Assembly: GCA_005400705.1 (NCBI GenBank)
Contig: GCA_005400705.1_4079.1
Length of the DNA: 64,000 nucleotides
DNA from: Escherichia coli
Lineage (GTDB): Bacteria; Pseudomonadota; Gammaproteobacteria; Enterobacterales; Enterobacteriaceae
Direction: 5' to 3' (one strand)
In this document: one piece after another, positions 732-43,797 of the stretch
Numbering within the stretch: the first letter of the stretch is position 1
Layout: the number at the start of each line of letters is the position of its first letter
Notes under the pieces: model-generated
Database searches by the model: none
The model's input: the letters and a program-made list of their open reading frames with translations, nothing else
Told to the model about the DNA's origin: nothing
Position numbers and translations under genes: made by a program

Positions 732-1153
732 GAGGTTATAATAAGATTTGTATTTTTGTATTTTTAGTTTGTGCATTCAATTCGTTTGGTTACTACTGTA
801 CAGAAAATAATATTTCATATGGTTTAAATCCTTTGTGGTTTACAATTTCTAATGTAGCACAAATTGGTATTGCTCTTATGTCTGCACTTATGTTCTGTCC
901 AATTGTCACTATGGATACTGATCATGAAAGGCTTGGATTTCTCCGTGATACTGGAGACGAACCTTACAGTAGATTGATTGTGTTGTATCCATTTATTGTT
1001 ATTTTAGGTACTAACATCCAACTTGGGTCATTATCTAATAGTGTTACATCAGCAGCTATTGCTATATTTGCATTCACATTTTTTATGGTACACAAATCAG
1101 TACTTAATTGGTATATCACAAAAATGGCAGAAGAAGGTACTAAAAATACTTGA
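728..1153 (+). CDS. hydrophobic membrane protein
   Basis: 141 aa ORF, start overlaps upstream stop (ATGA). Confidence 0.5.
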   Translation: MRGYNKICIFVFLVCAFNSFGYYCTENNISYGLNPLWFTISNVAQIGIALMSALMFCPIVTMDTDHERLGFLRDTGDEPYSRLIVLYPFIVILGTNIQLGSLSNSVTSAAIAIFAFTFFMVHKSVLNWYITKMAEEGTKNT

Positions 1154-1178
1154 CATAATTTAGTATGTTATATATAAT
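1150..1178 (+). promoter_or_regulatory. sigma70-type promoter TTGACA-17-TATAAT
   Basis: ttgaca at 1150-1155, tataat at 1173-1178. Confidence 0.6.
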
Positions 1179-1470: not shown

Positions 1471-1499
1471 TTGACATAACAAATAATATGGAGTACAAT
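1471..1499 (+). promoter_or_regulatory. sigma70-type promoter TTGACA-17-TACAAT
   Basis: ttgaca 1471-1476, tacaat 1494-1499. Confidence 0.55.
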
Positions 1500-1804: not shown

Positions 1805-2224
1805 ATGTTTAGATTTCTTCAGTACTTAATCATTAAGTTCTTTGGTTATCATACGATTGAAGGAAAAGCTACACTTGCACATAAAATCTTTGTAGCATTA
1901 TGTACGGGTGATTATGACGTATTGAATAAGTACTGTAAATCGCAAGCATGTATTGATATAATGGCACTTCGTATCTATGAGTGCCAGTTCAATAGATATA
2001 ATTTTTACCAGTACAGATTTGATAAAGAAGAATTTGATAGCATCAAAATGCTAAAGAATTTATGTAACAATAAAAAGAATATGCATATATCAGAATTTGT
2101 TGCTTTGTATTTTTATTTAAAAAGTTCATTGTATATGAACACGATGCAAAGATTCGATACTAGAATTAATGTATTCACCGATAAAGAATTTTATATATAC
2201 GATAAATTCTTAGATAAGGTTTAA
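1805..2224 (+). CDS. hypothetical protein
   Basis: 139 aa ORF, co-directional tiling. Confidence 0.5.
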   Translation: MFRFLQYLIIKFFGYHTIEGKATLAHKIFVALCTGDYDVLNKYCKSQACIDIMALRIYECQFNRYNFYQYRFDKEEFDSIKMLKNLCNNKKNMHISEFVALYFYLKSSLYMNTMQRFDTRINVFTDKEFYIYDKFLDKV

Positions 2225-2225
2225 T

Positions 2226-2723
2226 ATGACAACTGTTTATATTGATAAACGATTAAATTTATTGATTACCGATTCTAGAGTTACGTCAACTATACCACGA
2301 AACTTATTTGGTTTTTTTCCACTAAGACCAAAATATCAATATGGAGTTGTTAATCAAAAAACTTTATATGTACATGACCGTTTATTCAGTGCTAGTGGGG
2401 CAGTAAGTGAAATTGATAAAGTACTGGATTGGTTAATTAATAAAGTACCAGTTATACCTGACAGAAAGTTAAGTTGCCATTGTGTGCTTCTTTCTAAAGA
2501 TTATGTTATTCATATGATTTTAACTAAAGGAAAGTTTATTAAAAAACTTGAATATCTACATGAAGACTACACTTTCTTTATGGGAAGTGGTGGAGAATAC
2601 ATGGTAGATGCTGCTATTCATGAAGAACATACAACTTTATATGATAAAGTGTTTAGTACTTTCATGGATGTGCATAACCATGATTGCTTCACAGATGATA
2701 ATATTAATGTATATCGATTTTGA
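2226..2723 (+). CDS. hypothetical protein
   Basis: 165 aa ORF, co-directional tiling. Confidence 0.5.
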   Translation: MTTVYIDKRLNLLITDSRVTSTIPRNLFGFFPLRPKYQYGVVNQKTLYVHDRLFSASGAVSEIDKVLDWLINKVPVIPDRKLSCHCVLLSKDYVIHMILTKGKFIKKLEYLHEDYTFFMGSGGEYMVDAAIHEEHTTLYDKVFSTFMDVHNHDCFTDDNINVYRF

Positions 2724-2744
2724 TTTCGTCATTAGGAGATGTAA

Positions 2745-3710
2745 GTGAAAAAGCTTGATTTAAATACAATTGCCGAAGAAGTTCTGGATGAATGTTTTGC
2801 TAATGAAGAAGTCAACACACTAGAAGCCTTAGATTTCGTTGAAGATAAAGATGAAAATGAAGGTAAAGTACAAAGCAGTTTCAAATATAATATTACACTT
2901 AAGCGACCACCAAATGTTTCCAATGAAGATCTAATTCGTGATATTCAAGCTGGTATCAATGTAAAGAAAAACACTGAACTGTTAGTTCGTTACAATTATG
3001 GACTGATTATTGATGTAGCAAGTAAATGTACTTGTTATATCCCATTTGAAGATAAGATTTCATATGGTGTTGAGGGGTTCATGAGAGCACTAAAAACCTT
3101 TGATCTTAATAAGAATGTGAAGTTCATTACCTATGCTTCTTCTAGTATTTACATGACAGTTTATAACGAAAGTTCTGACGCTAACTATATGGTACACTTC
3201 CCACGTTATATGAGTGTTCATAAGATCAAAGTAAAAAGATTCTGCCAGGAATATATGCGTAAACATGGTGTTCGCCCAACTCCTGAAATAATCTCAGAGG
3301 GTACTGGGATTGAGATTCAGCATGTTAATAATTGTTTGTTATTTCAAAGCGAATACACTTCACTGGATGCACCATTAGACGGTGTTACAGATGGTACACT
3401 AGGTGACATTATTCATTCACCTGCTTCTGATTTTAACCTCAATGTTGATAGTATTCGTGCACCTTTACGTTATGCTATCAATGAACTGACTAACGAATTG
3501 AGTACTAAAGAACGTGAGATTATCCAGCGTGTTCATGGTCTAGGTGAATATGAACCTGAAACGCTTCGTGAGATTGCTGATAATGGTTTTGTTGATGATA
3601 ATGGAAAATATGTTAAATCCCGTTCATCAATACACCGAAAGTACAGTGAAGCTATGCAAAAGCTTAAGAAGCTAGTACTTGCAAAAGGGTACGAATACGA
3701 AGATTTCTAA
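2745..3710 (+). CDS. sigma-70 family RNA polymerase sigma factor-like protein
   Basis: 321 aa, GTG start with RBS aggaga; region-2-like YGVEGFMRALKTFDLNKNVKFITYASSSIY and region-4-like LSTKEREIIQRVHGLGEYEPETLREIADN...VKSRSSIHRKYSEAMQKLKKL. Confidence 0.65.
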   Translation: MKKLDLNTIAEEVLDECFANEEVNTLEALDFVEDKDENEGKVQSSFKYNITLKRPPNVSNEDLIRDIQAGINVKKNTELLVRYNYGLIIDVASKCTCYIPFEDKISYGVEGFMRALKTFDLNKNVKFITYASSSIYMTVYNESSDANYMVHFPRYMSVHKIKVKRFCQEYMRKHGVRPTPEIISEGTGIEIQHVNNCLLFQSEYTSLDAPLDGVTDGTLGDIIHSPASDFNLNVDSIRAPLRYAINELTNELSTKEREIIQRVHGLGEYEPETLREIADNGFVDDNGKYVKSRSSIHRKYSEAMQKLKKLVLAKGYEYEDF

Positions 3711-3717
3711 AGAAAAA

Positions 3718-3744
3718 GGGTTGGCTTATGCCAACCTTTTTTTA
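3718..3744 (+). terminator. intrinsic terminator
   Basis: gggttggc-ttat-gccaacc hairpin followed by T7 run. Confidence 0.7.
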
Positions 3745-4268
3745 TGGGATGAAGTAAAAGTTTGTGATATAATTATCTTGTACAATTCTGTTGGCATGAT
3801 ATTCATGTACCTGATCCACTCGAAAACGTAGAGGGCAGTTGAGCAGTCCGACAGTGCGAACAGCAAAAGAAACCCGTTAGATGTGGGCATAGTTTGAACC
3901 CCTCACGGCAATGCGGCTGTATAAAGAACCACGTTAGGATAGCTGGTGGTTCCTTGATAGACATATAAGGATAACACCTTACGAATTATCTAAGGGAGAG
4001 TTATCAAATTTTGTACAGGAAAGTTGCGTCCAGAATTTGAGTACTCACATTAAGTATTTGATTGCATAGATACTTAATGAAGATACACTATGTTTAAAAG
4101 TGTAGACCGTCATATGAAACTGAAGTAGAGAGAAACAGGATGACCCGCTTTCGCACTCGTTATGAGTAATCTTCAATGCAATAGCTCTGATACCATCAGC
4201 GTCAAATTTCCCTCCTTGTGGGGGGGAAGAAAAATCCCTTCCTCAAATCCCGTCAATATTAAAAGTCC
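3745..4268 (+). ncRNA. candidate structured non-coding RNA (unclassified)
   Basis: About 520 nt without ORF, locally GC-richer, nested helices e.g. gataac-a-cctta-cgaattatc-taagg-gaga-gttatc and gaaccac...gtggttc. Confidence 0.25.
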
Positions 4269-4297
4269 TTGACAGTTATTAATCATTCGCGTAGAAT
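4269..4297 (+). promoter_or_regulatory. sigma70-type promoter TTGACA-17-TAGAAT
   Basis: ttgaca 4269-4274, tagaat 4292-4297. Confidence 0.5.
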
Positions 4298-4361
4298 ACG
4301 TAGTATTAGAAGCGAACAGACATCTCTTCGAGATGGATGATTAACCATTAAGGAATATCAA

Positions 4362-4571
4362 ATGAATTCAGTAATCTTTTTAGTAGTCGCTTTCTCTGTT
4401 AATTCCGGTGTACAAATTACCCCAATGAACTCAATGAACCAATGTTTTTCTGTACGTGACAGTACTTATGATCAAGTAAACCACATGTCACTTATGACAG
4501 TTAGTAAAGAAAGTATGTGGTGTTACAATAGTAATACTAACACAAAGCTTATTGTAGGACAAACTCAATGA
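4362..4571 (+). CDS. hypothetical protein
   Basis: 69 aa ORF, RBS aagga upstream, hydrophobic N-terminus. Confidence 0.45.
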   Translation: MNSVIFLVVAFSVNSGVQITPMNSMNQCFSVRDSTYDQVNHMSLMTVSKESMWCYNSNTNTKLIVGQTQ

Positions 4572-4798
4572 GTTATGGTGTTCGTTTTGAGATTCGTTCT
4601 ATTGTCATCAATGCAGAGAAACAAGTATCGTTGGATGGTGATATACGTGAAATTTATCTATCATGTATCCGTGCGAAATCTGAAGCAGATGCCTTAGTAC
4701 AAATGTATAGTTTTAACTTTTCAAATGGATTCTATTTGGTACGAGTTGTTGAAGTTAAAAAAGTAATTCTTGGTTGTTGCATAGAAGGAATAATGTAA
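4568..4798 (+). CDS. hypothetical protein
   Basis: 76 aa ORF, ATGA overlap with upstream gene. Confidence 0.45.
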   Translation: MSYGVRFEIRSIVINAEKQVSLDGDIREIYLSCIRAKSEADALVQMYSFNFSNGFYLVRVVEVKKVILGCCIEGIM

Positions 4799-5587
4799 AT
4801 GAGCACTATCGATGAACTGATTCAACGGAATTCAAAATATTACCAACCATCAGAAATTGTGGATAACATTACTAAATCTGAGTTTGGACCGAACACACGC
4901 AAACTCATTCATGTAATGTCACGTGATGGCTTTAAATGTGATTGTTGTGGTGAATCAAATGTAGTATTCACTTTACACAAGCACAGTACTAAAGAACGTT
5001 ATAAATTCAGACCTTATGTACTTAAAGGGAAACGTCTTGTACGCATGACGTTAGACCATAACGTACTGGACTGTCTTCAGGGCGGTAATGATAAAGAGAA
5101 CATGACTGCACTGTGTGAAGATTGTAACGCATTACGCCAGCATAAGTTTGCTGAATACAGTGAGTTTAAACACTGGTATCATAACGCGGATCGTTCAATC
5201 GAGCCTGACGTTAACTACTGCTTCATTGAGTACATTAAGAATGCAAAAGATACATACATTCTTAAATCAATGTCACCTATTACCGTGTTTCCTGAGAACC
5301 TATTCACTACATTAAAGAATAGTTTTATTGTAGGTGATATTGATGCATTCAAGTATTTTGACAAAGGTGCAAAACATTTTGAAATTCAATGTCTTAGTAC
5401 TGCACTATGTGAACTCATTAAAATTTACATAAAAGAGTGTTTGGGTATTGACAATGTACGTGTACCAGAGTATACTTTTTCTATTGAATTCGATTGTGAA
5501 TCAATCAAAGAGTTTGGAATTCTTTTCAATAAACAAATAGAACTTGCAATTCAAAACGAAATCAAGTACTATACTACTAACATTTAA
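4799..5587 (+). CDS. HNH-family endonuclease (homing endonuclease-like)
   Basis: 262 aa; CDCCG ... TLDHNVLDCLQGGNDKENMTALCEDCNALRQHK matches the HNH CxxC/H-N/CxxC/H pattern. Confidence 0.65.
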   Translation: MSTIDELIQRNSKYYQPSEIVDNITKSEFGPNTRKLIHVMSRDGFKCDCCGESNVVFTLHKHSTKERYKFRPYVLKGKRLVRMTLDHNVLDCLQGGNDKENMTALCEDCNALRQHKFAEYSEFKHWYHNADRSIEPDVNYCFIEYIKNAKDTYILKSMSPITVFPENLFTTLKNSFIVGDIDAFKYFDKGAKHFEIQCLSTALCELIKIYIKECLGIDNVRVPEYTFSIEFDCESIKEFGILFNKQIELAIQNEIKYYTTNI

Positions 5588-6092: not shown

Positions 6093-6120
6093 TTGACAGA
6101 AGATATCAGTACTGTATAAT
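6093..6120 (+). promoter_or_regulatory. sigma70-type promoter TTGACA-16-TATAAT
   Basis: ttgaca 6093-6098, tataat 6115-6120, AGTACTG in spacer. Confidence 0.6.
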
Positions 6121-14909: not shown

Positions 14910-15024
14910 TTTAACTTTGGGACAACCATTCTTATTATGATATAATGTTTTATGTCATTCGATATAAATGACAACGGAACTATAAATATTATAGTAAAAT
15001 TTATCTCTTATAGGAGTTATAAAA

Positions 15025-15408
15025 ATGGTTGATAAATGGAATAAGAAAGATCCATCACATGATGTTGATATTTCTGGTCTAGACAATGCACATAAGCACA
15101 AGTATCTAGATTCACTAGGTCTTCTAAAACCGGACCAAAGTCTTGCACATGATCGTCCATCCCGTGAAAAAGCATTTAGCCTAGAATCACTAGGTCATGA
15201 GCTTAATCGTGTGTTTGAGGATCACCCAATCTATGTACGTGATATTATCGAGAAACTTAAAGTAACTCCTAAAGAGCACTTTAAAGCAACAGTACACTCT
15301 GCATTCCGTGCATTGCATGATTCTCTCAAGAAAACTCACAATCTTCGTAAAATTCATGATGAAATCGTGAATGCAATCGAAAGTGAAAAACATAAGTTCA
15401 AGAAGTAA
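15025..15408 (+). CDS. hypothetical protein
   Basis: 127 aa, RBS taggag; shares YLDSLGLL motif with 15655 product. Confidence 0.55.
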   Translation: MVDKWNKKDPSHDVDISGLDNAHKHKYLDSLGLLKPDQSLAHDRPSREKAFSLESLGHELNRVFEDHPIYVRDIIEKLKVTPKEHFKATVHSAFRALHDSLKKTHNLRKIHDEIVNAIESEKHKFKK

Positions 15409-20756: not shown

Positions 20757-20815
20757 TTGACAAACACATTCAGTACTGTATAATGCTTATCAAGGGGATG
20801 AACTTCTCATCCCTA
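20757..20815 (+). promoter_or_regulatory. promoter TTGACA-16-TATAAT plus 5' stem-loop
   Basis: ttgaca 20757-20762, tataat 20779-20784, stem gggatga-acttc-tcatccc. Confidence 0.55.
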
Positions 20816-27678: not shown

Positions 27679-28869
27679 TTACAATTGTCTAGGTGTATCC
27701 AGTACATATCTATTTGTACGAGGACCACCATCATCATCAGTTCCGGTTGAATATATATTTTTCATATCAGCAGTTAGGAAAGTACGATACGAACCGCGAT
27801 ATATTTTTATTTTATCATACATAGAATATGTTATTTCTGACGGCAATGGACATGCAGTAAATTTACCAATGGTAACATCAGAACCAACACCCAATGTGCC
27901 AGCATAACTACTCGCATTTAAACCAGTTGCATATACACCTGCACTCGTAACTAGTATACTAGATTGTGTTGGGTATCCAGTATGAATTGAATACAAAGTA
28001 CCGGGTGGTAAGGTTGTACTATTGTTTCCTAAAACTCCATTAACAGTGCTAGATGTAGTTTTATTTCCCCATGCTCCATTATTAGCTAATCCACCAACTA
28101 GAAACTGACGTGCTCCTGTATTTGGATTCTCCACTAAAGCACTGACTGAACCCATTGAGCATACAGTGTATTGTAACGTTTTTGTGTATGTTGTACTTGG
28201 CTGATATAAAGTATATTCATTATATAAAGTCCATGTAGTGCTGGAACTTATACCGGATGTACCACCACCAATATATAAATTATTTTGTGTATCAAAAAAC
28301 ATTGCACAGCTATTTGTTGACATTATTTGTGCAATATCAACATCTGGTGTTACAGCTTTAACAAATGAACCATCGGTTATTTGTTGAGTTTTTCCAGTAC
28401 CATCAGCGAATTGTTTAGCCCCACTCCAACCAGTACTCCATATTGTATTATTATCCATTAAGAAAGTAAACCACGTAGTACCTGCATACATCTGTTTAAT
28501 TGAAGTACTTGAACTTTGTGTGAACAAATTTTCAATATATTGGTTATAACTTAAAAATGATGTAGTACTAGTTTCTAAACCAATATGACTACCATATCCA
28601 CAATAAAAATAATTTAAGTCATTATCTTGTACTAACAAAGTTCCTTCTGACATCCAACAATCGTTAACGTTTTCTCTAATTAATGTCCATGTTCTTAATG
28701 CAGTGTTGTTTCCTCTCCCAAACTTCCCAAAACTATTATTGCCTCGTGCGTATAGTTGACCATCAGTATAAAGTACAACAACATCACTATTGATTGGTAT
28801 TATTTTCTTAATTTGAAGAGGCTCAGGTGTAATATTTCCATAATCAAACATTCTAACAAAAGGTAACAT
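27679..28869 (-). CDS. RCC1-like repeat (beta-propeller) protein with MLPFVRMFDYGN leader, paralog 1
   Basis: 396 aa from ATG with RBS aaggagg; G-x-F/L-G-x-G repeats; ORF-track extension MPVLDTG... reads through the upstream hairpin. Confidence 0.7.
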   Translation of the reverse strand: MLPFVRMFDYGNITPEPLQIKKIIPINSDVVVLYTDGQLYARGNNSFGKFGRGNNTALRTWTLIRENVNDCWMSEGTLLVQDNDLNYFYCGYGSHIGLETSTTSFLSYNQYIENLFTQSSSTSIKQMYAGTTWFTFLMDNNTIWSTGWSGAKQFADGTGKTQQITDGSFVKAVTPDVDIAQIMSTNSCAMFFDTQNNLYIGGGTSGISSSTTWTLYNEYTLYQPSTTYTKTLQYTVCSMGSVSALVENPNTGARQFLVGGLANNGAWGNKTTSSTVNGVLGNNSTTLPPGTLYSIHTGYPTQSSILVTSAGVYATGLNASSYAGTLGVGSDVTIGKFTACPLPSEITYSMYDKIKIYRGSYRTFLTADMKNIYSTGTDDDGGPRTNRYVLDTPRQL

Positions 28870-28939
28870 ATTTCCTCCTTTATTCATTATACTATATTTA
28901 ATACAAAAAGAAATGCCAGTATCAAGTACTGGCATAATA
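28870..28939 (-). promoter_or_regulatory. family cassette (hairpin, TATAAT, AAGGAGG)
   Basis: Near-identical to the other inter-paralog blocks. Confidence 0.5.
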
Positions 28940-30118
28940 TTATCGGTTAAATTTAAAATCTGTTATGTGTGTCCATGTATGATTTAATGGTGTACTCATT
29001 GGTGTAAAGCCAGCAGGGTCTGACAAAGCTGTACCACGTGCGTACATAAATTGATTGCCAGTACAATCCATTATAGCATAAGAACGTGTTGCTGTGCCAC
29101 ATTTGAACCCAACTGCACTACTTGGGGTCGGTAATACTTCAAATGTAGGTGCATTTGAACTACCACCCCCATCTTTTGTTCCAGCTATGTACAGAACTCC
29201 ATTAGTATCAATGATTAAGTTAGTCCAATATGCTTGTTCTCGACCAGCATAAAAATATGTTAAATCACCGGGTACAAATGGTAACGTTCCTTTATATATT
29301 GTGGTATTAACATTCACTGGTGCACCAGCTACACCCCATGAACTCATATAGTTTCTCCCACTTGCGTAGAATGTAGTTCCTTTACCGTAAAGTATTAATG
29401 TTGCTTGACTTGTTCGCATTGCATTATATTCAAACTCAGGATCATCAGTAGCGTCCTTAAAAATCTGTGTCCATGTTGTTATATTGCCAGTAGTTGTAAC
29501 ACCCATTTGATAATAATAATTATCACCAGTAGCATAGAATTCTTTAGGGCCAGTTTGTACAATTGCATTCCCATTAGTTAACCAAAAATCTAATGTATTA
29601 GTCTTGATCTTGGTTGGTGTGTAATTCGCCACGGTATTTCCTTTTCCGAAATAACCATTAGCGTTATTTCCATGACCCCATAAATCACCATTAGTTGTGC
29701 GTAGGAATAATGTACCAGTATTGAATCCAACTTTTTCTATAGTACTTATGTCAATACCAACAGCAGTGTACTTCGTTGTAAAATCTTGAAAAGTACTCCA
29801 ATAATTTGATGAACCATTAAACATGGTTTGTCTGCCAGTGTACTTCACTTTATTATCGTTAGTGATAAGTAATGTCCCCCACACTGACGCGAACATTAAC
29901 TTAACATTTTCCATAACAAAGTATGGCTTACCGTATGCTGACGCGGTAGTGTTTAAACCTAATAGTTGTCCATCATTACTACAACCCCATACTTCGCCGT
30001 TATCCAAAAGCATCAACATAGTAGGTTTGCCAGATGATACATCCAAAAAGAAATCTTTTGGTGTTGGTACACCAGGTGTGATATTCCCATAATCAAACAA
30101 TCTTACAAAAGGTAACAT
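28940..30118 (-). CDS. RCC1-like repeat protein with MLPFVRLFDYGN leader, paralog 2
   Basis: 392 aa; conserved leader and RBS. Confidence 0.7.
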   Translation of the reverse strand: MLPFVRLFDYGNITPGVPTPKDFFLDVSSGKPTMLMLLDNGEVWGCSNDGQLLGLNTTASAYGKPYFVMENVKLMFASVWGTLLITNDNKVKYTGRQTMFNGSSNYWSTFQDFTTKYTAVGIDISTIEKVGFNTGTLFLRTTNGDLWGHGNNANGYFGKGNTVANYTPTKIKTNTLDFWLTNGNAIVQTGPKEFYATGDNYYYQMGVTTTGNITTWTQIFKDATDDPEFEYNAMRTSQATLILYGKGTTFYASGRNYMSSWGVAGAPVNVNTTIYKGTLPFVPGDLTYFYAGREQAYWTNLIIDTNGVLYIAGTKDGGGSSNAPTFEVLPTPSSAVGFKCGTATRSYAIMDCTGNQFMYARGTALSDPAGFTPMSTPLNHTWTHITDFKFNR

Positions 30119-30189
30119 ATTTCCCTCCTTTATTCATTATACTATATTTAATACAAATAAGAATGCCAGTATCAAGTACTGGCATTATG
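30119..30189 (-). promoter_or_regulatory. family cassette (hairpin, TATAAT, AAGGAGG)
   Basis: gccagtacttgatactggc hairpin and tatagtataatgaataaaggaggg. Confidence 0.5.
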
Positions 30190-31299
30190 TTATTTTGGTA
30201 AATCAATTTTAGTAAAGACTGCAACATCTTCACTTGCTCCTGGTATTGCGTAATAAGAACCAGTACTATACACATCTCCATTTTTGGTTAATATCGATGT
30301 CAAACCATCACTAAAAAGAACATCCCTAATCTCACTAACTTCAACTGGTAATTGTAAATTGGTAGCACTATATATAGCACCAGTTTGAGAATTGTTTAAT
30401 CCCAAACCACGGTTCGCCCCAACACCCTTCTGATATGTACTAGTAATTACCATTTGTGTAGCAGTATTTAAGGCAGGTGAATTCGTCATAAACAACGGAG
30501 AACTATTAGGCAAAGTACTTACAGGAACGGCACGGAATGTAGTCGTACCTGAACTAAGAAAGTTTGGAGTTTGACCACATACGAAATATGATGTACCATT
30601 ATAGTAATTGAATGCATTACCACCAATGGCTGCATCGATTACACCAGAACTACGCAATCCCCAAGTGTTAATTTGTGTTTGGTTCCCCGTACCATGCTGT
30701 CCACTACTATTCCATCCAGAACTATATAGCTTATTATCTAATGTAAGATACATACTATCATTCGCATTGGTCATTACTTTACGAACGTTCGTAGCACATT
30801 GAGTTAATGTGTAAATTGATGAGGAACCAATACCCAAAGAACCACGATATCCATTATCTCCTGCACCATAGAGTACTGAATTAGTGCTAAGTACAAATAT
30901 TAAACCATTTGTACATACAATATTAGCAATTTCACTTACTGGTATAGCATTGGTAAACCAATTAGTCCTTTCAACTAATACAGTACTGTAAGAAGTAGTT
31001 GTAGAAGATGAGAACCAGTACGTTTGACCTGATGTCCATATCGTATTATCATTTTTAATAATAACAAGTGTACGATCACCCACGAAAAAATTAGAAACAT
31101 CTGTACTTACTAATATCCATGAAGATACCGTGTTGGTATTACCATTTCCAGATTCACCACCTTGATTTCTACCTATGTAATATAAATCATGTGAATCAGT
31201 CAATAAGAATTGACCTTGTGTAGAAGCACCAACTTTAATTATATTTTTAGGACCAGGTACAATATTTCCGTACTTAACCATTCTTGCAAAAGGTAACAT
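30190..31299 (-). CDS. RCC1-like repeat protein with MLPFARMVKYGN leader, paralog 3
   Basis: 369 aa; GSLGIG, GQHGTG motifs; only 10 nt downstream of paralog 4 (likely co-transcribed). Confidence 0.7.
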   Translation of the reverse strand: MLPFARMVKYGNIVPGPKNIIKVGASTQGQFLLTDSHDLYYIGRNQGGESGNGNTNTVSSWILVSTDVSNFFVGDRTLVIIKNDNTIWTSGQTYWFSSSTTTSYSTVLVERTNWFTNAIPVSEIANIVCTNGLIFVLSTNSVLYGAGDNGYRGSLGIGSSSIYTLTQCATNVRKVMTNANDSMYLTLDNKLYSSGWNSSGQHGTGNQTQINTWGLRSSGVIDAAIGGNAFNYYNGTSYFVCGQTPNFLSSGTTTFRAVPVSTLPNSSPLFMTNSPALNTATQMVITSTYQKGVGANRGLGLNNSQTGAIYSATNLQLPVEVSEIRDVLFSDGLTSILTKNGDVYSTGSYYAIPGASEDVAVFTKIDLPK

Positions 31300-31309
31300 A
31301 ATTCTCTCC

Positions 31310-32440
31310 TTAATTTAATAATGCCCCTGGCAAATCCACTTTGACGAATTGTGCATATGCTGAGGAATTTTGATCAAAGTTTGGTCCCAATCCATAAAAT
31401 GAGCTAATGCCGTCTTCATTTGTGTATATGATATAAACGTTCTTTACATCATTTCCGCATATAAATCGAATGTCTTTCGTTTGTGTTCCCGCTGGAACAT
31501 TACGAAGGTTCACAACGCCATTACTTGCATTGTTATCAGCCGACGCAATTGGTAATTGATTTTGACCATATTGACCACGCATATTTTTTGCATCTAAACC
31601 AAACACAGTATTTGATACCGCACCAACTTTCAAAAATGAACCAAAACTATTATTGAATGACTTTGGAAATGTACCACTATAAACACTTCTCCCATCTGAT
31701 AATACCGCTGAACTGAATTTCCCGTTATTCGATATGGCAAATTCATTGTAAGGAAGTGTACCCATTTTGGTATATACAGAATATGAATTAGTGGAAGTAT
31801 TATCAATAATCTTATTACCATTATATCCAATACCATACTGGTATCCGTCTGCATCTTGAACTATACACAAAGGACCACTTGGGGTTTGTGTCAACGAAAC
31901 AACACGTTCAACTTGTATATCACCAAATGTATTTCTTCGCCATGTTCTATCTATTATAGTACTAGTATTACCCAAAGATAATTCCACACTATATAATAGA
32001 TTGTTTTCAGTAAAAATGGCAACATAATATGCGTGGTTAATAACTTGCTTCATCCCAGCATCAATAACTTCCTGTGGAATATGATCAGTAACATCCAACC
32101 AATCAAGGTTAGATGATGCAATATCTGGAGTACTGAATTTGTCAAATCTAGTTGAGCCACAAACTAGCACTCTATCATCATTTGTCAAAGCCACTGTGCT
32201 AGTCTGCATATTAGAACTGAATGATTTAACATTACTAATGTTAGACTTGTACCAACCCTTATCAGCAGCACCCACCGTGAATCCGGTTCCCATTGATCCA
32301 CTTGTACTTGTACCATAAGCCCACATCTCACCACTATATGTTAGTGCCATACAGTGGCTTCCATTTGCTTGGAAATCCTTTATACCAGTGGGAGCAACCA
32401 CTGTATTCCCATAATCAAACATTCTAACAAAAGGTAACAT
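31310..32440 (-). CDS. RCC1-like repeat protein with MLPFVRMFDYGN leader, paralog 4
   Basis: 376 aa from ATG 32440 (RBS ggag); ORF-track start 32455 adds 5 codons without an RBS. Confidence 0.65.
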   Translation of the reverse strand: MLPFVRMFDYGNTVVAPTGIKDFQANGSHCMALTYSGEMWAYGTSTSGSMGTGFTVGAADKGWYKSNISNVKSFSSNMQTSTVALTNDDRVLVCGSTRFDKFSTPDIASSNLDWLDVTDHIPQEVIDAGMKQVINHAYYVAIFTENNLLYSVELSLGNTSTIIDRTWRRNTFGDIQVERVVSLTQTPSGPLCIVQDADGYQYGIGYNGNKIIDNTSTNSYSVYTKMGTLPYNEFAISNNGKFSSAVLSDGRSVYSGTFPKSFNNSFGSFLKVGAVSNTVFGLDAKNMRGQYGQNQLPIASADNNASNGVVNLRNVPAGTQTKDIRFICGNDVKNVYIIYTNEDGISSFYGLGPNFDQNSSAYAQFVKVDLPGALLN

Positions 32441-32515
32441 AACTAAAATCTCCATATAATAATTATAATGTATTTACAAAAAAATACCAGTACATATTTC
32501 AGTACTGGTATAATG
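32441..32515 (-). promoter_or_regulatory. family cassette variant (hairpin ACCAGTACTGAAATATGTACTGGT, TATAAT)
   Basis: Palindromic hairpin plus tataat. Confidence 0.45.
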
Positions 32516-33688
32516 TTATGGTAAAATAATAGCTTGTAACGAACTCATACCCAATGTTGGGACACTCGCCTGTGGTGCTGGTGCATTCACTTTTGGTGAT
32601 GAAACCGCATAAGTCATTCCTGTACCCAAATCTGGATCAAAAACTACAGAACAATAATCCCCATTGTATATAAGTCCATTAGTATATCCTTGTGCACTTT
32701 GAATGCATTTCGTGAACGTACCAATGTCAGTAGTGGCATTTATTAAGTTCCTCCCACGGTAGCCACAGGTGTATATGAAATTATCAACACCTATGTACAT
32801 ACTCGCAGAACCAGAAGAACTACATAGATAAGACATATAAGCACGCATGTTTTTAGGAGCAACTGACAATGTACCAGCATAGAATTTATTATTCATACTC
32901 GAAATATCACCATCACCCAAAGCACCAAAACTCCCCCAACCAGTACCATAATATCTCTTATCACTCAAGAATATAATACAGTTGTTATTACACATCTTGA
33001 CTTGATATATCAATGAAGGATCAACCCCAGGGAATGATTCAGTGTATGTTAGAACAGCCAGATCAGTACTAGCATTACATTGATGATATGTATTAGTACC
33101 AGCGGACAATATTGTACCATCAACTAATAGAATCCTCGAAGTGCCAGTACCAGCAATACAAGCAACAGCATTACCTGTATATATTTGTCTGAAAGTAAAG
33201 AAACCAACAGTCTTACTCCCCTGTCCACTCCAACCAGTATTATCAACACCACATGCCCATACTGAACCATCTTGCATGATCATCATTACACCATAGCGTT
33301 CTATCGAAATATAGACAATCTTCGTAGTATCAACTGCACTAAATCTAGAAGTTATATCAGTCCAAACCTTTACACTCACCGCCGTCGCACCGAAAGTAGG
33401 ATCTTCCCCTGCTATCATTATCCTACCATTGTTAGTCAGATACATTGTCTGACTATAACCAGTACTACAAAACTTAACACTATCAGTCTCTGGAACTTTT
33501 AACCACTCGTTGTAACGTGTTACGTTAGTGTTATTACCTAACTGATAATAGTTATTCATCCCAGATACATATAACACACCATCCTTTATTAAACTATAAG
33601 TCGCACTATAGTCACTACAGGTATAACGTGTACCCACAGGTCGCTCAACGACGTTCCCATAATCAAACATTCTAACAAAAGGTAACAT
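32516..33688 (-). CDS. RCC1-like repeat protein with MLPFVRMFDYGN leader, paralog 5
   Basis: 390 aa; GALGDG motif. Confidence 0.7.
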   Translation of the reverse strand: MLPFVRMFDYGNVVERPVGTRYTCSDYSATYSLIKDGVLYVSGMNNYYQLGNNTNVTRYNEWLKVPETDSVKFCSTGYSQTMYLTNNGRIMIAGEDPTFGATAVSVKVWTDITSRFSAVDTTKIVYISIERYGVMMIMQDGSVWACGVDNTGWSGQGSKTVGFFTFRQIYTGNAVACIAGTGTSRILLVDGTILSAGTNTYHQCNASTDLAVLTYTESFPGVDPSLIYQVKMCNNNCIIFLSDKRYYGTGWGSFGALGDGDISSMNNKFYAGTLSVAPKNMRAYMSYLCSSSGSASMYIGVDNFIYTCGYRGRNLINATTDIGTFTKCIQSAQGYTNGLIYNGDYCSVVFDPDLGTGMTYAVSSPKVNAPAPQASVPTLGMSSLQAIILP

Positions 33689-33768
33689 AATTAAATCTCC
33701 AAAATTAAAATAATTAGATAGTATTTACAAAAAATACCAGTACATATTTCAGTACTGGTATCGTAGCG
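33689..33768 (-). promoter_or_regulatory. family cassette variant
   Basis: Same hairpin type as 32441-32515. Confidence 0.45.
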
Positions 33769-34911
33769 TTAAAATGGCATCTTAACCTCTTTATATACTA
33801 ATATATCACCGGATAAACCAGGAAACGCAGAACCATTACCACATGCATATATAGTACTATCATTCCACACTGCTTGATGGTAATTGCCTATAGTACATTT
33901 ATAATTCGATAAATCAGTCACACCAGGTGTTAGTACATAATATACTGGTCCACTAGGTAAATTAAAATCAAATCTACCAAAGTAGTTCAAACCAGATGAA
34001 TAGGACTTGTCATTAGCAAATATTACAGTACCATCTTCTGTAAAAGAACTGTGAGAAATGTCTTTGAGATTGTTCACAACACCAGACGGTATTGATGTAT
34101 TCAACGTAAAGGACGTCAATGGTGCTGCACTTGGTGTGTTGTTCGCCGTGTAACCATAATATGCATAACCAGCTACATATACACTCGAATCTGAACAAAA
34201 TAAAAATGCACTCCTATAACCCAACCTAATACTCTCTATAGTCTTACTAAAAGTAACTTTAGTAAAGGTAGGAACTAAACCACTATATCCTACCCCACAT
34301 GTACCAAAATCATTCTTCCCAGTACTGTACAATTCGTTATTATTTGTAAGGTAAAATGACGCAGCAGCACCGCTATCTAAAGTACTGTAAACGTCTTTTA
34401 CATTACTCGCAATCAATTTAAATGCACTCAATACGGTAGCCGAACCATTGTTAGACAGCGTTGTTGAATCCGTGCCTTGTCCTATTGTATATAAATCTCC
34501 AGTACTAGTCAAAACAAATATACCATTAGTCGCCATAACAATTCTGTCATTCTTTAAATTAAATGAACTAAAAAGTGTACTTATATCAGTAAAGGTAGTA
34601 TAACGCCCACTCTGCCCTATACTCGATAAATTCCCACTCAAATAAACCTTATTATCATTACCAACAGCTACATAACAACCCCACCCAGCATATATCTGAT
34701 CAATGCCTTGTATCGGTATTTGTAACCATTCACTACCAGTTACCGAAGCAGTACTTCCAGTTCCAAGTTCACCAGAGTTATTAGCTCCGAATACATATAA
34801 ATTCCCACTATCCGATAAAACAACTGTATTACCAACTCCAGTTTTTATATCCTTGATACCATTCTTAGGAGCAACATTCCCATAATCAAACATTCTAACA
34901 AAAGGTAACAT
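33769..34911 (-). CDS. RCC1-like repeat protein with MLPFVRMFDYGN leader, paralog 6
   Basis: 380 aa; GELGTG motif. Confidence 0.7.
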   Translation of the reverse strand: MLPFVRMFDYGNVAPKNGIKDIKTGVGNTVVLSDSGNLYVFGANNSGELGTGSTASVTGSEWLQIPIQGIDQIYAGWGCYVAVGNDNKVYLSGNLSSIGQSGRYTTFTDISTLFSSFNLKNDRIVMATNGIFVLTSTGDLYTIGQGTDSTTLSNNGSATVLSAFKLIASNVKDVYSTLDSGAAASFYLTNNNELYSTGKNDFGTCGVGYSGLVPTFTKVTFSKTIESIRLGYRSAFLFCSDSSVYVAGYAYYGYTANNTPSAAPLTSFTLNTSIPSGVVNNLKDISHSSFTEDGTVIFANDKSYSSGLNYFGRFDFNLPSGPVYYVLTPGVTDLSNYKCTIGNYHQAVWNDSTIYACGNGSAFPGLSGDILVYKEVKMPF

Positions 34912-34983
34912 ATTTCCCTCCTTTATTCATTATACTATATTTAATCAAAAAGAAAAGCCAGTACTTGAGTACTGGCATAGTTT
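34912..34983 (-). promoter_or_regulatory. family cassette (hairpin, TATAAT, AAGGAGG)
   Basis: gccagtactcaagtactggc hairpin, tatagtataatgaataaaggagg. Confidence 0.5.
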
Positions 34984-36111
34984 TCAAAAAGGTAAATCAA
35001 TTTGCTTAGTAATAATAGTATCTAACGGTATTGAACACAATGAGAAATTCTTTCCACCCGTATTTTCAGGATTATATCCATTCATCCATACATTATTACC
35101 TTCGTAAAATGTATTCCAGTATAAAGCCCCACTATATCGTGTATTCGAATTGAACGATGGAAAGTTGAATTCTTGGAATGATGTAAAATATGGAATGGAA
35201 CTTGAACTACTTCCCGTAAATGGGGTATACCCAGTTGCTATTAGTTTGTTTGTATCTGCATTAATTAAAAATACAACACTAGTCGAATAGTCCAACGAAT
35301 CAGGATGATATATATTACTCATATCACCTATAGTAAAACCAACATCAAAAACTTTACTATGTGCACCACTACCAGCAAAAGTAGTTCCAGTTGCATATAT
35401 TTTATTATCAGATGTTATCATTACAAAACCAGCACCAGAAACAAAACTGCATTTTATATCATAAGATATATCATCAAACAACGGAACAAATGTGGTTGCA
35501 TCACCCGATGTTGCTTTAACTTGAAAGCTGTTATTTGAACCTGAACCATATACAGTTCCATCGTTTTTAATCTTAAACAATGTATCGCCAAGGTAACCGC
35601 CAAATATATTATCCACATTAGTGTCAAGTACAGTCCACGCTGAAACATAATTTTTATGTCCTAAACCTAATGCACCACTTCGATTCCATCCTCTTCCATA
35701 AAGTGTTCCGTCTTTCATTAATATAAATGCTGTATAACCACATAACATTTTTTTAATTTGGGTAACATCTATACCAGTGAAATACACACCCCAGTCAGTA
35801 TATCCTTGTTGGAAAGTATCAGAATTCGTGAATGCATATGTTGAACCTGAACCATATATTTTATCACCTTTAATAACAACGGAAAACAATCCTAACCATA
35901 AGTCATCAACTTCAGTTGTGATTTGTTGAACTGCTCCTAACGATACAAACTGTGTACTTAAACCCGCATTATAGTTTGAATCTTCACCGTGTGCATATAC
36001 AGTGCCATCTTGCATTAGAAACATTTCAAGAGTGTAACTAACAACACTTTTCTTTATATTATTAACTTCGATTATATTCCCATAATCAAACATTCTAACA
36101 AAAGGTAACAT
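34984..36111 (-). CDS. RCC1-like repeat protein with MLPFVRMFDYGN leader, paralog 7
   Basis: 375 aa; GALGLG motif. Confidence 0.7.
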   Translation of the reverse strand: MLPFVRMFDYGNIIEVNNIKKSVVSYTLEMFLMQDGTVYAHGEDSNYNAGLSTQFVSLGAVQQITTEVDDLWLGLFSVVIKGDKIYGSGSTYAFTNSDTFQQGYTDWGVYFTGIDVTQIKKMLCGYTAFILMKDGTLYGRGWNRSGALGLGHKNYVSAWTVLDTNVDNIFGGYLGDTLFKIKNDGTVYGSGSNNSFQVKATSGDATTFVPLFDDISYDIKCSFVSGAGFVMITSDNKIYATGTTFAGSGAHSKVFDVGFTIGDMSNIYHPDSLDYSTSVVFLINADTNKLIATGYTPFTGSSSSSIPYFTSFQEFNFPSFNSNTRYSGALYWNTFYEGNNVWMNGYNPENTGGKNFSLCSIPLDTIITKQIDLPF

Positions 36112-36183
36112 AATTCCCTCCTTTATTCATTATACTTTATTTAATACAAATAAGAATTCCTGTATCGAGTACTGGCATTCAAT
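36112..36183 (-). promoter_or_regulatory. family cassette (hairpin, TATAAT, AAGGAGG)
   Basis: gccagtactcgatacagg hairpin-like, tataatgaataaaggagg. Confidence 0.45.
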
Positions 36184-37332: not shown

Positions 37333-37375
37333 AATTCCCTCCTTTATTCATTATATCATATTTACCCCATAACCC

Positions 37376-37404
37376 TTGACATCCTTTCAGTACTGGTGTA
37401 CTAT
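37376..37404 (+). promoter_or_regulatory. candidate promoter TTGACA-17-TACTAT in divergent region
   Basis: ttgaca 37376-37381, AGTACTG in spacer. Confidence 0.4.
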
Positions 37405-41416: not shown

Positions 41417-42054
41417 TTAAACACAAGTAGACAGGGGAAGCTCCTAGTGAACAACCTTTATGTACAGGCGAATTGTTAAAATTCAGCCTGGACAAATGCG
41501 ATCACTAGGATTCTCCCCAGGCTAAACCCCGTAATCATAGGTAGTCATAAGTAATCATATATAAACATTTATATGAGCACCGTAGAATCACAGAATGATT
41601 ATATATGATTCAGTACTGATTAGTATAGACAAGATTGCTCAAGAATGCACGGAAATGTGTGTGAATGATTCAGTACTGATATCCCACTAAGTAGGCAGAG
41701 GAAGTCTGCCGTACTTTTTAGTTTCCAAGCTCCTTTTCCATTTTTCAAATTACATCAAATGTAATCAAAAGTAATCACGCAATGATTAGTACTGAATTAT
41801 TACTTTCACCTTAATTACAATTACCCTTTTACCCTTCGGGGTAAAATTCCATTACCCCTTGAGGCTCCAGCAAAAAGTTGGTTAGTACTCCATCCTAAAT
41901 CTCGATCCTAAAAATTTTGGAGTACCTATGAAATAAAAGTTGGATCTTCGAAAGTTGAAATTTACGTTGGGACGTTTATGATTTGTGGGATATAATGATG
42001 TTTGTAGTCGGGTAGTTCTCAAGAATATCAGTACTGAATGATGAAAGAAAGCTA

Positions 42055-42082
42055 TTGACTTTATGATTCAGTACTGTATAAT
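42055..42082 (+). promoter_or_regulatory. orphan promoter TTGACT-16-TATAAT with no ORF downstream
   Basis: ttgact 42055-42060, tataat 42077-42082, followed by gttttacat as in the PeSL-type promoters. Confidence 0.5.
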
Positions 42083-42088
42083 GTTTTA

Positions 42089-43788: not shown

Positions 43789-43797
43789 GTTTTAGAA

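What the first reader, a model, noticed from the sequence alone, without database searches (positions are those of the whole stretch)
2745..3710. Phage-encoded sigma-70-family protein
The 321 aa product has recognisable sigma region 2 (YGVEGFMRALKTFDLNKNVKFITYASSSIYMTV) and region 4 (LSTKEREIIQRVHGLGEYEPETLREIADN...SIHRKYSEAMQKLKKL). A phage sigma factor in an early-gene block suggests a dedicated transcription class. Candidate targets are the non-canonical promoters, such as the TTGCAA-type -35 of the cassettes or the RCC1-array cassettes.
Basis: partly seen in the sequence, partly recalled or inferred. Interest (0 to 1): 0.6.

Follow-up and report, generated by a model that had tools for sequence, protein, structure and literature searches.

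The report
Jumbo-phage sigma factor, already annotated
The ORF is a genuine sigma-70-family transcription factor of a 121Q/PBECO4-type jumbo coliphage, already annotated as such in dozens of public genomes, and it most likely redirects the host RNA polymerase from early genes to a distinct "middle" promoter class.

Summary
ORF 2745..3710 (+, 321 aa, GTG start) is a sigma-70-family protein with sigma2, sigma3 and sigma4 domains, supported by Pfam, NCBIfam, PHROG, PDB, AlphaFold2 and Foldseek.

The window comes from an Asteriusvirus jumbo coliphage. The protein is 99-100% identical to 121Q gp167 and its homologues, which are already annotated "RNA polymerase sigma factor". [quoted passage not shown] The gene itself is therefore not new. 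I found no experimental work on its targets.

The gene lies in an early block driven by perfect host-type promoters and ends at an intrinsic terminator. The TTGCAA cassettes look like variants of the host-type early class, and the RCC1 cassettes lack a -35 element.

A third class fits better: tG[G/A]GACA-N13-TGN-TATAAT. The pattern gives 23 sites in 121Q, all on the strand that carries about 80% of the coding sequence, against about 0.3 expected. These sites sit upstream of replication genes, tRNAs and the gp55-like late sigma gene. Variable promoter positions co-vary across phage genera with the sigma's DNA-reading residues. This supports an inferred, untested cascade: host sigma70, then phage sigma, then gp55.

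In passing: the ORF-free 0.5 kb after the gene is a conserved, multi-copy structured RNA that is absent from Rfam and driven by this promoter class.

The parts
1150..1178 (+). Host-type (sigma70 consensus) early promoter TTGACA-17-TATAAT, the nearest perfect promoter upstream of the sigma operon
   Evidence: 12/12 match. No strong terminator lies between it and the sigma gene.
1471..1499 (+). Second host-type promoter TTGACA-17-TACAAT upstream of the ORFs co-transcribed with sigma
   Evidence: 11/12 match.
2734..2738 (+). Shine-Dalgarno AGGAG, 6 nt before the GTG start
   Evidence: sequence.
2745..3710 (+). Sigma-70-family gene (321 aa), equal to 121Q gp167. Residues 1-55 form an acidic, disordered N-terminal tail with the conserved motif LDLNxIxEEVLDECF. 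Sigma2 spans about residues 56-147, sigma3 about 154-199, the sigma3.2 linker about 200-240, and sigma4 about 241-314.
3585..3617 (+). Family-specific insertion of about 8 aa (G-F-V-D-D-N-G-K-Y-V) in the turn of the sigma4.2 helix-turn-helix, predicted as a beta-hairpin just before the recognition helix S-R-S-S-I-H-R-K-Y
   Evidence: Alignments. DSSP of the model shows strands at residues 282-283 and 289-290. Pfam r4 aligns only residues 251-279.
3719..3743 (+). Intrinsic terminator GGTTGGC-TTAT-GCCAACC followed by T7, 8 nt after the stop codon; it ends the early sigma transcript
   Evidence: The same terminator is annotated in the phage G17 record.
3746..3773 (+). Class-3-like promoter GGGATG-N13-TGA-TATAAT directly after the terminator
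   Evidence: The paralogous RNA copies carry canonical GGGACA/GAGACA versions.
3776..4271 (+). Conserved structured non-coding RNA candidate, about 0.5 kb, one of four paralogues per genome and not in Rfam. It is the sigma gene's downstream neighbour here and in RaK2.
14919..14946 (+). The only canonical class-3 promoter in the window: GGGACA-N13-TGA-TATAAT, 79 nt upstream of ORF 15025-15408
   Evidence: equals 121Q 101440-101467.

Best explanation
The ORF encodes a functional sigma-70-family factor of an Asteriusvirus jumbo phage. It has a group-3-like build: sigma2, sigma3 and sigma4, no region 1.1/1.2 proper, no Trp dyad, an acidic N-terminal tail, and a hairpin inserted in the sigma4.2 helix-turn-helix. 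Shown by sequence and position: the gene is made early, from host-sigma70 consensus promoters, as the last gene of an operon closed by an intrinsic terminator. Inferred: the protein binds host core RNA polymerase and directs it to a phage-specific 'middle' promoter class. That class reads A/T-rich - t-G[G/A]GACA - N13 - TG[A/C] - TATAAT, with the upstream element at the canonical sigma4 distance of 16-17 nt from the -10. In the near-identical 121Q genome this class precedes the primase, topoisomerase II and DNA-polymerase operons, an exonuclease, Clp proteins, tRNA genes, four structured non-coding RNAs, and the T4 gp55-like late sigma gene. The proposed result is a cascade: host sigma70 (early genes), then this sigma (middle genes), then gp55-like sigma (late genes, TATAAATA promoters).
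For: Identity as a sigma factor. Early expression context. The class-3 promoter is real: GGGACA and GAGACA are the 2nd and 5th most frequent hexamers exactly 16 nt upstream of TATAAT genome-wide. The pattern gives 23 sites on the + strand, which carries about 80% of the coding sequence, and 0 on the - strand, against a mean of 0.3 in Markov simulations. Of 20 non-coding + strand G[GA]GACA occurrences, 10 are followed by TGN-TATAAT or TGN-TACAAT at 13 nt. Targets: the sites lie 14-100 nt upstream of primase, exonuclease, topoisomerase II, ClpP-like, ClpA-like and the gp591 late sigma gene (58 nt), and 448 nt upstream of DNA polymerase at the head of its operon. gp591 is gp55-like by tblastn. 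Late genes carry TATAAATA-like motifs. The class-3 distribution is complementary to the early classes. The class is conserved across genera with lineage-specific changes: Eneladusvirus TG[G/A]AAC[A/G]-N13-TGG-TATAAT, RaK2 TGAAC[A/G]-N13-TGA-TATAAT, and lineage X GGGACA-N14-TGA-TATAAT. This matches the 'divergent RpoD-like promoter' TGAAACG...TATA reported for CBB and GAP32 (PMC5259590). Co-variation with the sigma's DNA-reading segments: the sigma4.2 helix S-R-x-S-[IL]-H-R goes with GGGACA (121Q, X); S-K-A-T-L-S-R-R goes with GGAAC/GGATC (Eneladus, Y); RaK2 V-R-G-T-L-H-Y-K goes with TGAACA. The region 3.0 motif P-[R/K] goes with TGA, and P-E goes with TGG. Lineage X sigma is closer overall to the Eneladus sigma (43%) than to the window protein (35%), yet it shares promoter type and reading residues with 121Q.
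Against: No experiment links this protein to any promoter; I found none. The class-3 -10 is the host consensus plus an extended -10 TGn, so sigma70 holoenzyme could use these promoters unaided or with an activator. The residues that read -12 and TG in sigma70 are not conserved here (Q437 to M, T440 to Y, H455 to Y, E458 to V), so a preference for TG-TATAAT is not predicted by homology. The co-variation amounts to about two independent evolutionary events. Lineages Eneladus and Y share a recognition helix but differ in the -35 (GGAACR versus GGATCG, n=2). Only one or two class-3 sites lie in this window, so the regulon was defined in 121Q, which is 77-98% identical to the window across blocks (97.2% over the first 16.5 kb, which hold the gene).
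Confidence: 0.6

Rival explanations
1. Class-3 promoters are read by host sigma70, through their consensus extended -10, together with a separate phage activator that binds the G[G/A]GACA box, in the manner of T4 MotA/AsiA. The phage sigma would then have another job, for example replacing or out-competing sigma70 on the early cassettes or serving a small unidentified regulon.
For: The -10 and TGn of class 3 equal the sigma70 consensus. The phage sigma lacks the sigma70 residues known to read -12 and TG. [quoted passage not shown]
Against: The upstream element sits at the canonical sigma4 spacing of 16-17 nt, not at -30 like a MotA box. Its lineage-specific variants track the sigma4.2 helix and region 3.0 residues. 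A tblastn of a recalled T4 AsiA sequence against 121Q found nothing significant, best E 0.055; this is a weak test.
Confidence: 0.2
2. One reading: the sigma serves the TTGCA[AT]-type cassette promoters and/or the RCC1-array cassette promoters.
For: There are 17 TTGCA[AT]-N16-TATAAT sites in the window, a clearly non-random set. The RCC1 genes have a repeated upstream cassette (TAAATAnnGTATAAT) with no -35 element. Nothing tested here excludes either.
Against: TTGCA[AT] promoters share every other feature with the interleaved TTGACA promoters, occupy only the early cassette region, and are rare relative to TTGACA in RaK2, 3 against 16. That pattern suggests drift within one host-read class rather than a class conserved along with the sigma. 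The RCC1 cassettes have no conserved element at -35 for a sigma4 domain to read. phAPEC6 has eleven RCC1-like genes, whereas GAP32, which also carries the sigma, has only one (PMC7247149).
Confidence: 0.12
3. The protein is mainly a competitor or decoy that strips sigma70 from core polymerase to shut off the host, without productive promoter recognition, or it is a decaying captured host gene.
For: The divergent melting region, with no Trp dyad, and sub-threshold Pfam r2 and r4 scores.
Against: The gene is present in every Asteriusvirus record matched and across the RaK2-like group, down to 31% identity in phage records, with invariant core positions N84, D103, F127, T129 and P153 and a conserved HTH recognition helix. 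Lack of the Trp dyad is normal for group 3 alternative sigmas (established knowledge). All three DNA/core-binding domains are confidently folded.
Confidence: 0.05

Closest known systems
Escherichia phage 121Q gp167 / PBECO4, G17, Sharanji, phAPEC6 'RNA polymerase sigma factor' (Asteriusvirus)
   Same: The same gene: 99.4-100% amino-acid identity, the same neighbours and the same terminator.
   Different: Nothing material. Some records label it rpoD, RpoS or FliA, which over-states what is known.
RpoD-like sigma of RaK2-like / 'group 2' jumbo phages (RaK2 ORF244, GAP32, CBB_513, Eneladusvirus) and the 'divergent RpoD-like promoters' of CBB and GAP32
   Same: Orthologues at 31-46% identity with the same domain build, the missing Trp dyad and the sigma4.2 insertion. 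CBB's TGAAACG...TATA class upstream of DNA-synthesis genes and of its gp55-like gene is the counterpart of the class-3 promoters here.
   Different: The -35 box is G[G/A]GACA in this lineage, and the recognition helix differs (S-R-S-S-I-H-R-K versus S-K-A-T-L-S-R-R). The published work did not assign the promoter class to this sigma.
Bacillus phage SPO1 gp28 (middle sigma) and the gp33/gp34 cascade
   Same: A working analogy: an early-expressed phage sigma replaces the host primary sigma on host core polymerase and switches on middle genes, including the late sigma (established knowledge; SPO1 cascade summarised in PMC13401047).
   Different: No detectable orthology. The SPO1 sigmas are much more divergent and recognise unrelated hexamers. 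Here the -10 stays TATAAT.
T4 MotA/AsiA sigma appropriation plus gp55/gp33/gp45 late system
   Same: The same position in the programme: an early-to-middle switch that leads to a gp55-type late sigma reading TATAAATA. The phage is a distant T4 relative with a gp55 homologue next to gp46/47 homologues.
   Different: T4 remodels host sigma70 instead of bringing its own full-length sigma. The MotA box is centred near -30, whereas the element here is at -35.
Cellular group 2/3 sigma factors (RpoS, SigB/F/G, FliA)
   Same: The best structural and profile matches. The three-domain build and the absence of W433/W434 resemble group 3 factors.
   Different: Scores are far below every equivalog cut-off, for example 88 against 354 bits for RpoD_Cterm. 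The family forms a separate cluster: 15 representatives at E<1e-30, then a gap to cellular sigmas at about 1e-20. It also has a family-specific N-terminal acidic motif and an HTH insertion.

Membership tests
Sigma-70 family (superfamily level) | Sigma2 domain (regions 2.1-2.4) with the core-binding and -10-reading helices | tested here: met
   Pfam PF04542 at residues 80-140, E 7e-5, 23.0 bits against a cut-off of 24.0. HMMER alignment to E. coli sigma70 residues 373-578. Invariant N84, D103, F127, T129 and Y130. Confident helices at 60-147.
Sigma-70 family (superfamily level) | Sigma3 domain | tested here: met
   PF04539 at residues 162-226, E 2e-9, 37.8 bits, above the 25.3 cut-off.
Sigma-70 family (superfamily level) | Sigma4 domain with helix-turn-helix (region 4.2) | tested here: met
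   PF04545 at residues 251-279, E 3e-5, 23.8 against 24.1 bits. Only the first half aligns because of the 8-aa insertion. The model shows helices 241-249, 254-264, 274-280 and 293-314 with pLDDT 82-91. TIGR02937 scores 44.7 bits, above the 42.9 cut-off, spanning residues 80-309.
Sigma-70 family (superfamily level) | Binds core RNA polymerase and confers promoter-specific initiation | not testable with these tools
   Requires biochemistry. Only indirect support is available, from promoter/sigma co-variation.
Primary sigma RpoD (group 1), as some records label it | Regions 1.1 and 1.2, a score above the RpoD equivalog cut-offs, and the Trp dyad W433/W434 | tested here: not met
   RpoD_Cterm scores 88 bits against a 354 cut-off; PRK05658 scores 64 against 555. 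W433/W434 are replaced by S-S, and the dyad is absent from every family member aligned, whereas 25 of the 28 cellular sigmas I inspected keep it. The N-terminus is a 55-residue acidic tail with no match to region 1.1/1.2.
RpoD-like sigma of RaK2-like 'group 2' jumbo phages (PHROG 351) | Orthology to the sigma shared by Asteriusvirus, Alcyoneusvirus and Eneladusvirus phages, encoded in the early region | tested here: met
   PHROG_351 at 2.6e-60. tblastn gives 91 phage records, 73 of them full length. 100% identity to cluster P0001. The family signature (no WW, G-[FY]-x-D-x-x-G-K insertion, N-terminal LNLxxIxEEVLDECF) is shared.
T4 gp55-type late sigma | Minimal sigma2-like protein, syntenic with gp46/47, reading TATAAATA | tested here: not met
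   A different gene fills that role: 121Q gp591, next to SbcCD homologues, matches cyanophage gp55. The ORF studied here has full sigma3 and sigma4 domains.

The most novel reading that the evidence does not exclude
The sigma defines a self-contained, co-evolving transcription module in RaK2-like jumbo phages. Its sigma4.2 helix, with the inserted hairpin, and its region 3.0 read a lineage-specific promoter (tGRGACA-N13-TGN-TATAAT here). The regulon would include replication genes, tRNAs, the gp55-like late sigma, and a previously undescribed family of about 0.5-kb structured RNAs present in 3-5 copies per genome, one of them placed directly behind the sigma gene in two genera. That RNA could itself act on transcription, for instance as a polymerase- or sigma-binding RNA.
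Probability: 0.45. Interest if true: 0.65.

Novelty: already known. Interest (0 to 1): 0.3.

Why it matters
The gene adds nothing new as an annotation. It is the known sigma factor of 121Q-type phages. What would matter is its regulon, because no one has shown which promoters this widespread jumbo-phage sigma reads. The promoter class and the sigma/promoter co-variation described here give a concrete hypothesis for the early-to-middle switch in a group of therapeutic-candidate phages where more than 80% of genes have no known function. The hypothesis can be tested with a helix swap. It would also supply orthogonal sigma/promoter pairs for E. coli engineering. The structured RNA found next to the gene may be the more original lead.

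Tried and rejected
(1) An Rfam scan of the whole window at gathering thresholds, and of 3700-4400 at E<=10, found no known RNA family, only terminator look-alikes. No tRNAs were found.

(2) The word-indexed protein search returned only 14 relatives. The exhaustive HMMER search was needed to see the family boundary.

(3) I at first treated the missing Trp dyad as remarkable. On reflection it is typical of group 3 sigmas, so I keep it only as evidence against the 'RpoD' label.

(4) MAFFT misaligned E. coli region 4.2 because of the insertion. The residue equivalences for positions 584-590 rest on my manual register of the hydrophobic pattern and are marked as inference.

(5) The AsiA test used a T4 sequence recalled from memory. 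The best hit was E 0.055, so the test is uninformative rather than negative. No MotA test was possible.

(6) Counting TTGCAA-type promoters in the first RaK2 and Eneladus loci was uninformative because those loci are middle/late regions. I fetched the RaK2 early region to repair this.

(7) The fEgEco12 paper's statement that phage Ecwhy_1 lacks a sigma gene is not borne out. Ecwhy_1 carries a homologue at 1662-2630.

(8) Literature searches for experiments on this sigma or for the RNA found nothing.
Full report
OBSERVATION. An AGGAG Shine-Dalgarno lies 6 nt upstream. Both quoted peptide strings are present in the translation.

Every profile library calls it a sigma factor. Pfam Sigma70_r3 is above threshold, and r2 and r4 fall about 1 bit or less below. 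PHROG_351 'RNA polymerase sigma factor' scores 2.6e-60. NCBIfam RpoD_Cterm scores 6e-25, and the sigma-70 superfamily model scores above its cut-off. Solved RpoD, SigA, SigB and RpoS chains match down to 5e-17 over residues 31-283.

An AlphaFold2 model built on 28 family members has mean pLDDT 75. It shows three confident helical domains at residues 60-147, 154-199 and 241-314, a disordered acidic N-terminus, and a small beta-hairpin inserted before the last helix. Its best Foldseek matches are sigmaS and sigmaA inside transcription-initiation complexes.

WHAT GENOME THIS IS, AND WHAT IS ALREADY KNOWN. The window is from an Asteriusvirus jumbo coliphage. Window 2000-5000 is 98.5% identical in DNA to phage 121Q. 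It is collinear with 121Q from about 86.5 to 158 kb. The protein is 99.4-99.7% identical to 121Q gp167 and to its counterparts in PBECO4, G17, Sharanji, JP4 and others, and phAPEC6 carries the gene at 99.3% DNA identity. It is 100% identical to a public cluster named 'sigma-70 family RNA polymerase sigma factor'. All Asteriusvirus-like records carry it.

Orthologues at 31-46% identity occur throughout the RaK2-like group: RaK2, K64-1, GAP32, CBB, Eneladusvirus, Salmonella 7t3 and Xanthomonas XbC2. An exhaustive HMMER search of 1.84 billion representatives shows a discrete family. Fifteen clusters score at E<1e-30, and cellular sigmas begin only near 1e-20.

[quoted passage not shown] It is noted in the CBB, Sharanji, phAPEC6, fEgEco12 and UE-S1 genome papers. 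I found no experiment on its promoter specificity. The gene and its annotation are therefore already known.

ANATOMY OF THE PROTEIN. HMMER aligns residues 74-279 to E. coli sigma70 residues 373-578. Conserved positions include N383, D403, F419, K426, F427, T429, Y430, A431 and P453.

The Trp dyad W433/W434 is S-S here. It is absent from every member of the phage family aligned, whereas 25 of the 28 cellular sigmas I inspected keep it. From established knowledge, group 3 alternative sigmas such as FliA and the sporulation sigmas also lack it. The feature argues against the 'rpoD' label some records use, but it is not exotic.

The sigma70 residues known to read -12 and the extended -10 are changed: Q437 to M, T440 to Y, H455 to Y, E458 to V.

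Region 4.2 carries a family-wide insertion of about 8 residues (G-[FY]-x-D-x-x-G-K) in the HTH turn, modelled as a hairpin. By my manual register, the recognition helix reads S-R-S-S-I-H-R-K-Y against sigma70 T-R-E-R-I-R-Q-I-E. That makes R584 conserved, with E585 to S, R586 to S, R588 to H and Q589 to R.

The first 55 residues are strongly acidic and predicted disordered. They begin with a motif, LDLNxIxEEVLDECF, that is conserved across the family.

GENOMIC CONTEXT. The gene is the last of a run of small + strand ORFs. Upstream lie TTGACA-17-TATAAT at 1150 and TTGACA-17-TACAAT at 1471. The preceding ORF ends 21 nt before the start codon. A clean intrinsic terminator at 3719-3743 follows the stop codon, and the G17 record annotates the same terminator.

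The window as a whole holds 37 sites with at least 11 of 12 matches to the sigma70 consensus. The sigma gene is therefore an early gene read by host sigma70 holoenzyme. This follows from sequence; it has not been measured.

WHICH PROMOTERS COULD IT SERVE? I assembled the whole 121Q genome from annotated stretches. I then asked which hexamers sit 16-17 nt upstream of every TATAAT. Three stand out.

1. TTGACA, 29 sites. This is the host consensus.

2. TTGCA[AT], about 14 sites.

3. GGGACA, GAGACA and TGGACA, about 18 sites. Nearly all carry TGN immediately before the -10, which the TTGACA class mostly lacks.

The pattern [GTA][GA]GAC[AG]-N13-TGN-TA[TC]AAT gives 23 sites on the + strand and none on the - strand. 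First-order Markov simulations give a mean of 0.3. The consensus is A/T-rich - t-GGGACA-Aa - N - TGA - TATAAT.

These class-3 sites are mostly intergenic. They sit shortly upstream of the primase, an exonuclease, topoisomerase II, the operon leading to DNA polymerase, ClpP-like and ClpA-like genes and tRNA genes. One lies 58 nt upstream of gp591. gp591 is the T4 gp55-type late sigma, as shown by tblastn hits to cyanophage gp55 and by its position next to gp46/47 homologues. Structural genes carry TATAAATA-like motifs. Along the genome, class 3 is complementary to classes 1 and 2.

The same arrangement was described for CBB and GAP32. There the class was a 'divergent RpoD-like promoter', TGAAACG plus TATA, before DNA-synthesis genes and the gp55-like gene (PMC5259590). 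That work did not assign it to the phage sigma.

CO-VARIATION TEST. I obtained orthologous promoters and sigma sequences from other lineages.

- 121Q: G[G/A]GACA, TG[A/C].
- Lineage X (IMG/VR contigs of 366, 360 and 174 kb): GGGACA one base further upstream, TGA.
- RaK2: TGAAC[A/G], TGA.
- Eneladusvirus-like: TG[G/A]AAC[A/G], TGG, about 25 sites.
- Lineage Y: TGGATCG, TGG, 2 sites.

The sigma4.2 recognition helix is S-R-S-S-I-H-R-K in 121Q, S-R-T-S-L-H-R-C in X, V-R-G-T-L-H-Y-K in RaK2, and S-K-A-T-L-S-R-R in Eneladus and Y. The region 3.0 motif is P-R/K in 121Q, X and RaK2, and P-E in Eneladus and Y.

So R...H-R goes with GGGACA, and K...S-R goes with GGAAC or GGATC. Loss of the Arg at the Q589-equivalent position in RaK2 goes with loss of the leading G's. 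A basic versus acidic residue in region 3.0 goes with A versus G at -13.

Lineage X sigma is closer overall to the Eneladus sigma (43%) than to the window protein (35%), yet it shares promoter type and reading residues with 121Q. From memory of the classical genetics (Gardella 1989, Siegele 1989) and of sigma4/-35 structures, positions 584 and 588 read hexamer positions 5 and 3, and region 3.0 reads the extended -10. The co-varying positions are therefore the expected ones.

This is suggestive. It rests on roughly two independent changes and on a manual alignment register.

MECHANISM (BEST MODEL). Shown: a bona fide sigma-family protein encoded in a host-promoter-driven early operon, a distinct and conserved promoter class at canonical sigma geometry in front of middle-type genes and the late sigma gene, and co-variation between that class and the sigma's DNA-reading segments.

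Inferred: the protein displaces sigma70 on host core polymerase and drives class-3 promoters, giving a three-step sigma cascade. I put this at about 0.6.

The main rival, at about 0.2, is that host sigma70 reads these promoters through their consensus extended -10, helped by an unidentified activator. The canonical -35 spacing and the co-variation argue against it, but nothing excludes it.

TTGCA[AT] promoters share most features with the neighbouring TTGACA promoters and occur only in the early cassette region. They are a minority variant in RaK2. The RCC1 cassettes have a -10 but no -35 box.

SIDE FINDING. The 0.6-kb ORF-free, G+C-richer stretch after the terminator begins with a class-3-like promoter, GGGATG-N13-TGA-TATAAT, at 3746-3773. 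It is one of four paralogous elements in 121Q, and the other three carry canonical class-3 promoters.

Homologues occur in 62 phage records at 3-5 copies each, in much the same phage groups that carry the sigma: Escherichia, Salmonella, Erwinia, Yersinia, Serratia, Pectobacterium, Cronobacter and Xanthomonas phages, though only 1 Klebsiella record against 10 for the sigma. They usually have no annotated gene. No occurrence of a 27-nt signature was found in 185,579 bacterial and archaeal genomes.

In 17 of the 19 IMG/VR copies a lineage-appropriate class-3 promoter lies 300-415 nt upstream of the signature. In RaK2 a copy again lies directly behind the sigma gene.

An 18-sequence alignment supports a 16-helix structure with long-range pairs. 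Of all cells, 95.1% are paired. Forty-eight pairs show compensatory double changes, against 10-24 when the partners are slid. The covariation score is 0.40 against 0.05-0.08 for slid partners, and 0 of 500 shuffles reach the observed value.

Rfam 15 has no matching family, and I found no paper describing it. Its function is unknown. It is recorded as a lead and is not part of the verdict on the sigma gene.

VERDICT. The gene is already known and annotated, so the finding itself is ordinary (interest 0.3). The untested regulon model and the neighbouring structured RNA are the parts worth following up.

Noticed in passing
window 3746-4271 (+); paralogues at 121Q 192803-193316, 247480-248114, 326640-327208; RaK2 L013:2489-2985; Erwinia phage L011:24607-25229: A conserved structured RNA candidate of about 0.5 kb, with 3-5 copies per genome, restricted to RaK2-like jumbo phages. 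It has 62 phage records and no exact match to a 27-nt signature in 185,579 bacterial and archaeal genomes. Each 121Q copy, and 17 of 19 IMG/VR copies, lie behind a class-3 promoter. The structure has 16 helices, 48 pairs with compensatory changes, and a covariation score of 0.40 against about 0.06 in slid controls. It is not in Rfam 15, and I found no paper on it. Some GenBank records place small 'hypothetical protein' ORFs over it, for example RaK2 ORF245.
   Followed up: yes
window 42000-61000 and elsewhere, e.g. 6093-6120, 20757-20784, 58374-58401; RaK2 L045:34785-46800: The 8-bp palindrome CAGTACTG (containing AGTACT) sits in the spacer of many early promoters, directly abutting the -10. 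It is also often found upstream of the -35. It occurs 194 times in the 121Q genome, where I would expect roughly 5-10 by chance (my estimate, not computed). The arrangement is conserved in RaK2. It could be an operator for early shut-off or a modification or nuclease site.
   Followed up: partly
window 43371-60830, e.g. 49176-49210, 50703-50740: The early 'cassettes' share a leader, GTTTTACATC, followed at once by a G+C-rich hairpin such as GGGGAGAAATGGTTCTCCCC at the 5' end of the transcript, before very small ORFs.
   Followed up: no
window 27679-37400 (- strand RCC1-like gene array): In six of the nine RCC1-array upstream regions examined there is a terminator hairpin built on GCCAGTACT...ACTGGC, followed by a T-rich run and a TAAATA-type box ahead of TATAAT or a near variant, with no -35 element. 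Four of them share the full TTTGTATTAAATA(T/A)AGTATAATGAATAAAGGAGG cassette. A similar TAAATAaaGTATAAT precedes a structural gene at 121Q 266.6 kb. This may be a further promoter subclass.
   Followed up: partly
121Q L005:33053-33080 and L005:34843-34871 (record 73453-73480, 75243-75271): Class-3 promoters lie directly upstream of phage tRNA genes (tRNA-Ser/Leu and tRNA-Ser/Met/Asn clusters). The tRNAs would therefore belong to the same putative middle regulon.
   Followed up: partly
window 2745-2909 (residues 1-55 of the sigma): An acidic N-terminal tail, predicted disordered, with 14 acidic and 3 basic residues in the first 40. It carries a short motif, LDLNxIxEEVLDECF, conserved across the phage sigma family. 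It could be a region-1.1-like autoinhibitory element or a partner-binding element.
   Followed up: partly
Escherichia phage Ecwhy_1 MH791411.1:1662-2630: A published comparison (PMC13070987) lists the sigma factor as absent from phage Ecwhy_1. blastn finds a full-length homologue there, annotated 'similar to RNA polymerase sigma factor'.
   Followed up: yes
window 4799-5587 (+): An HNH-endonuclease-like ORF of 262 aa (annotated HNH endonuclease in 121Q, gp170) sits in the early block 1.1 kb downstream of the sigma gene.
   Followed up: no
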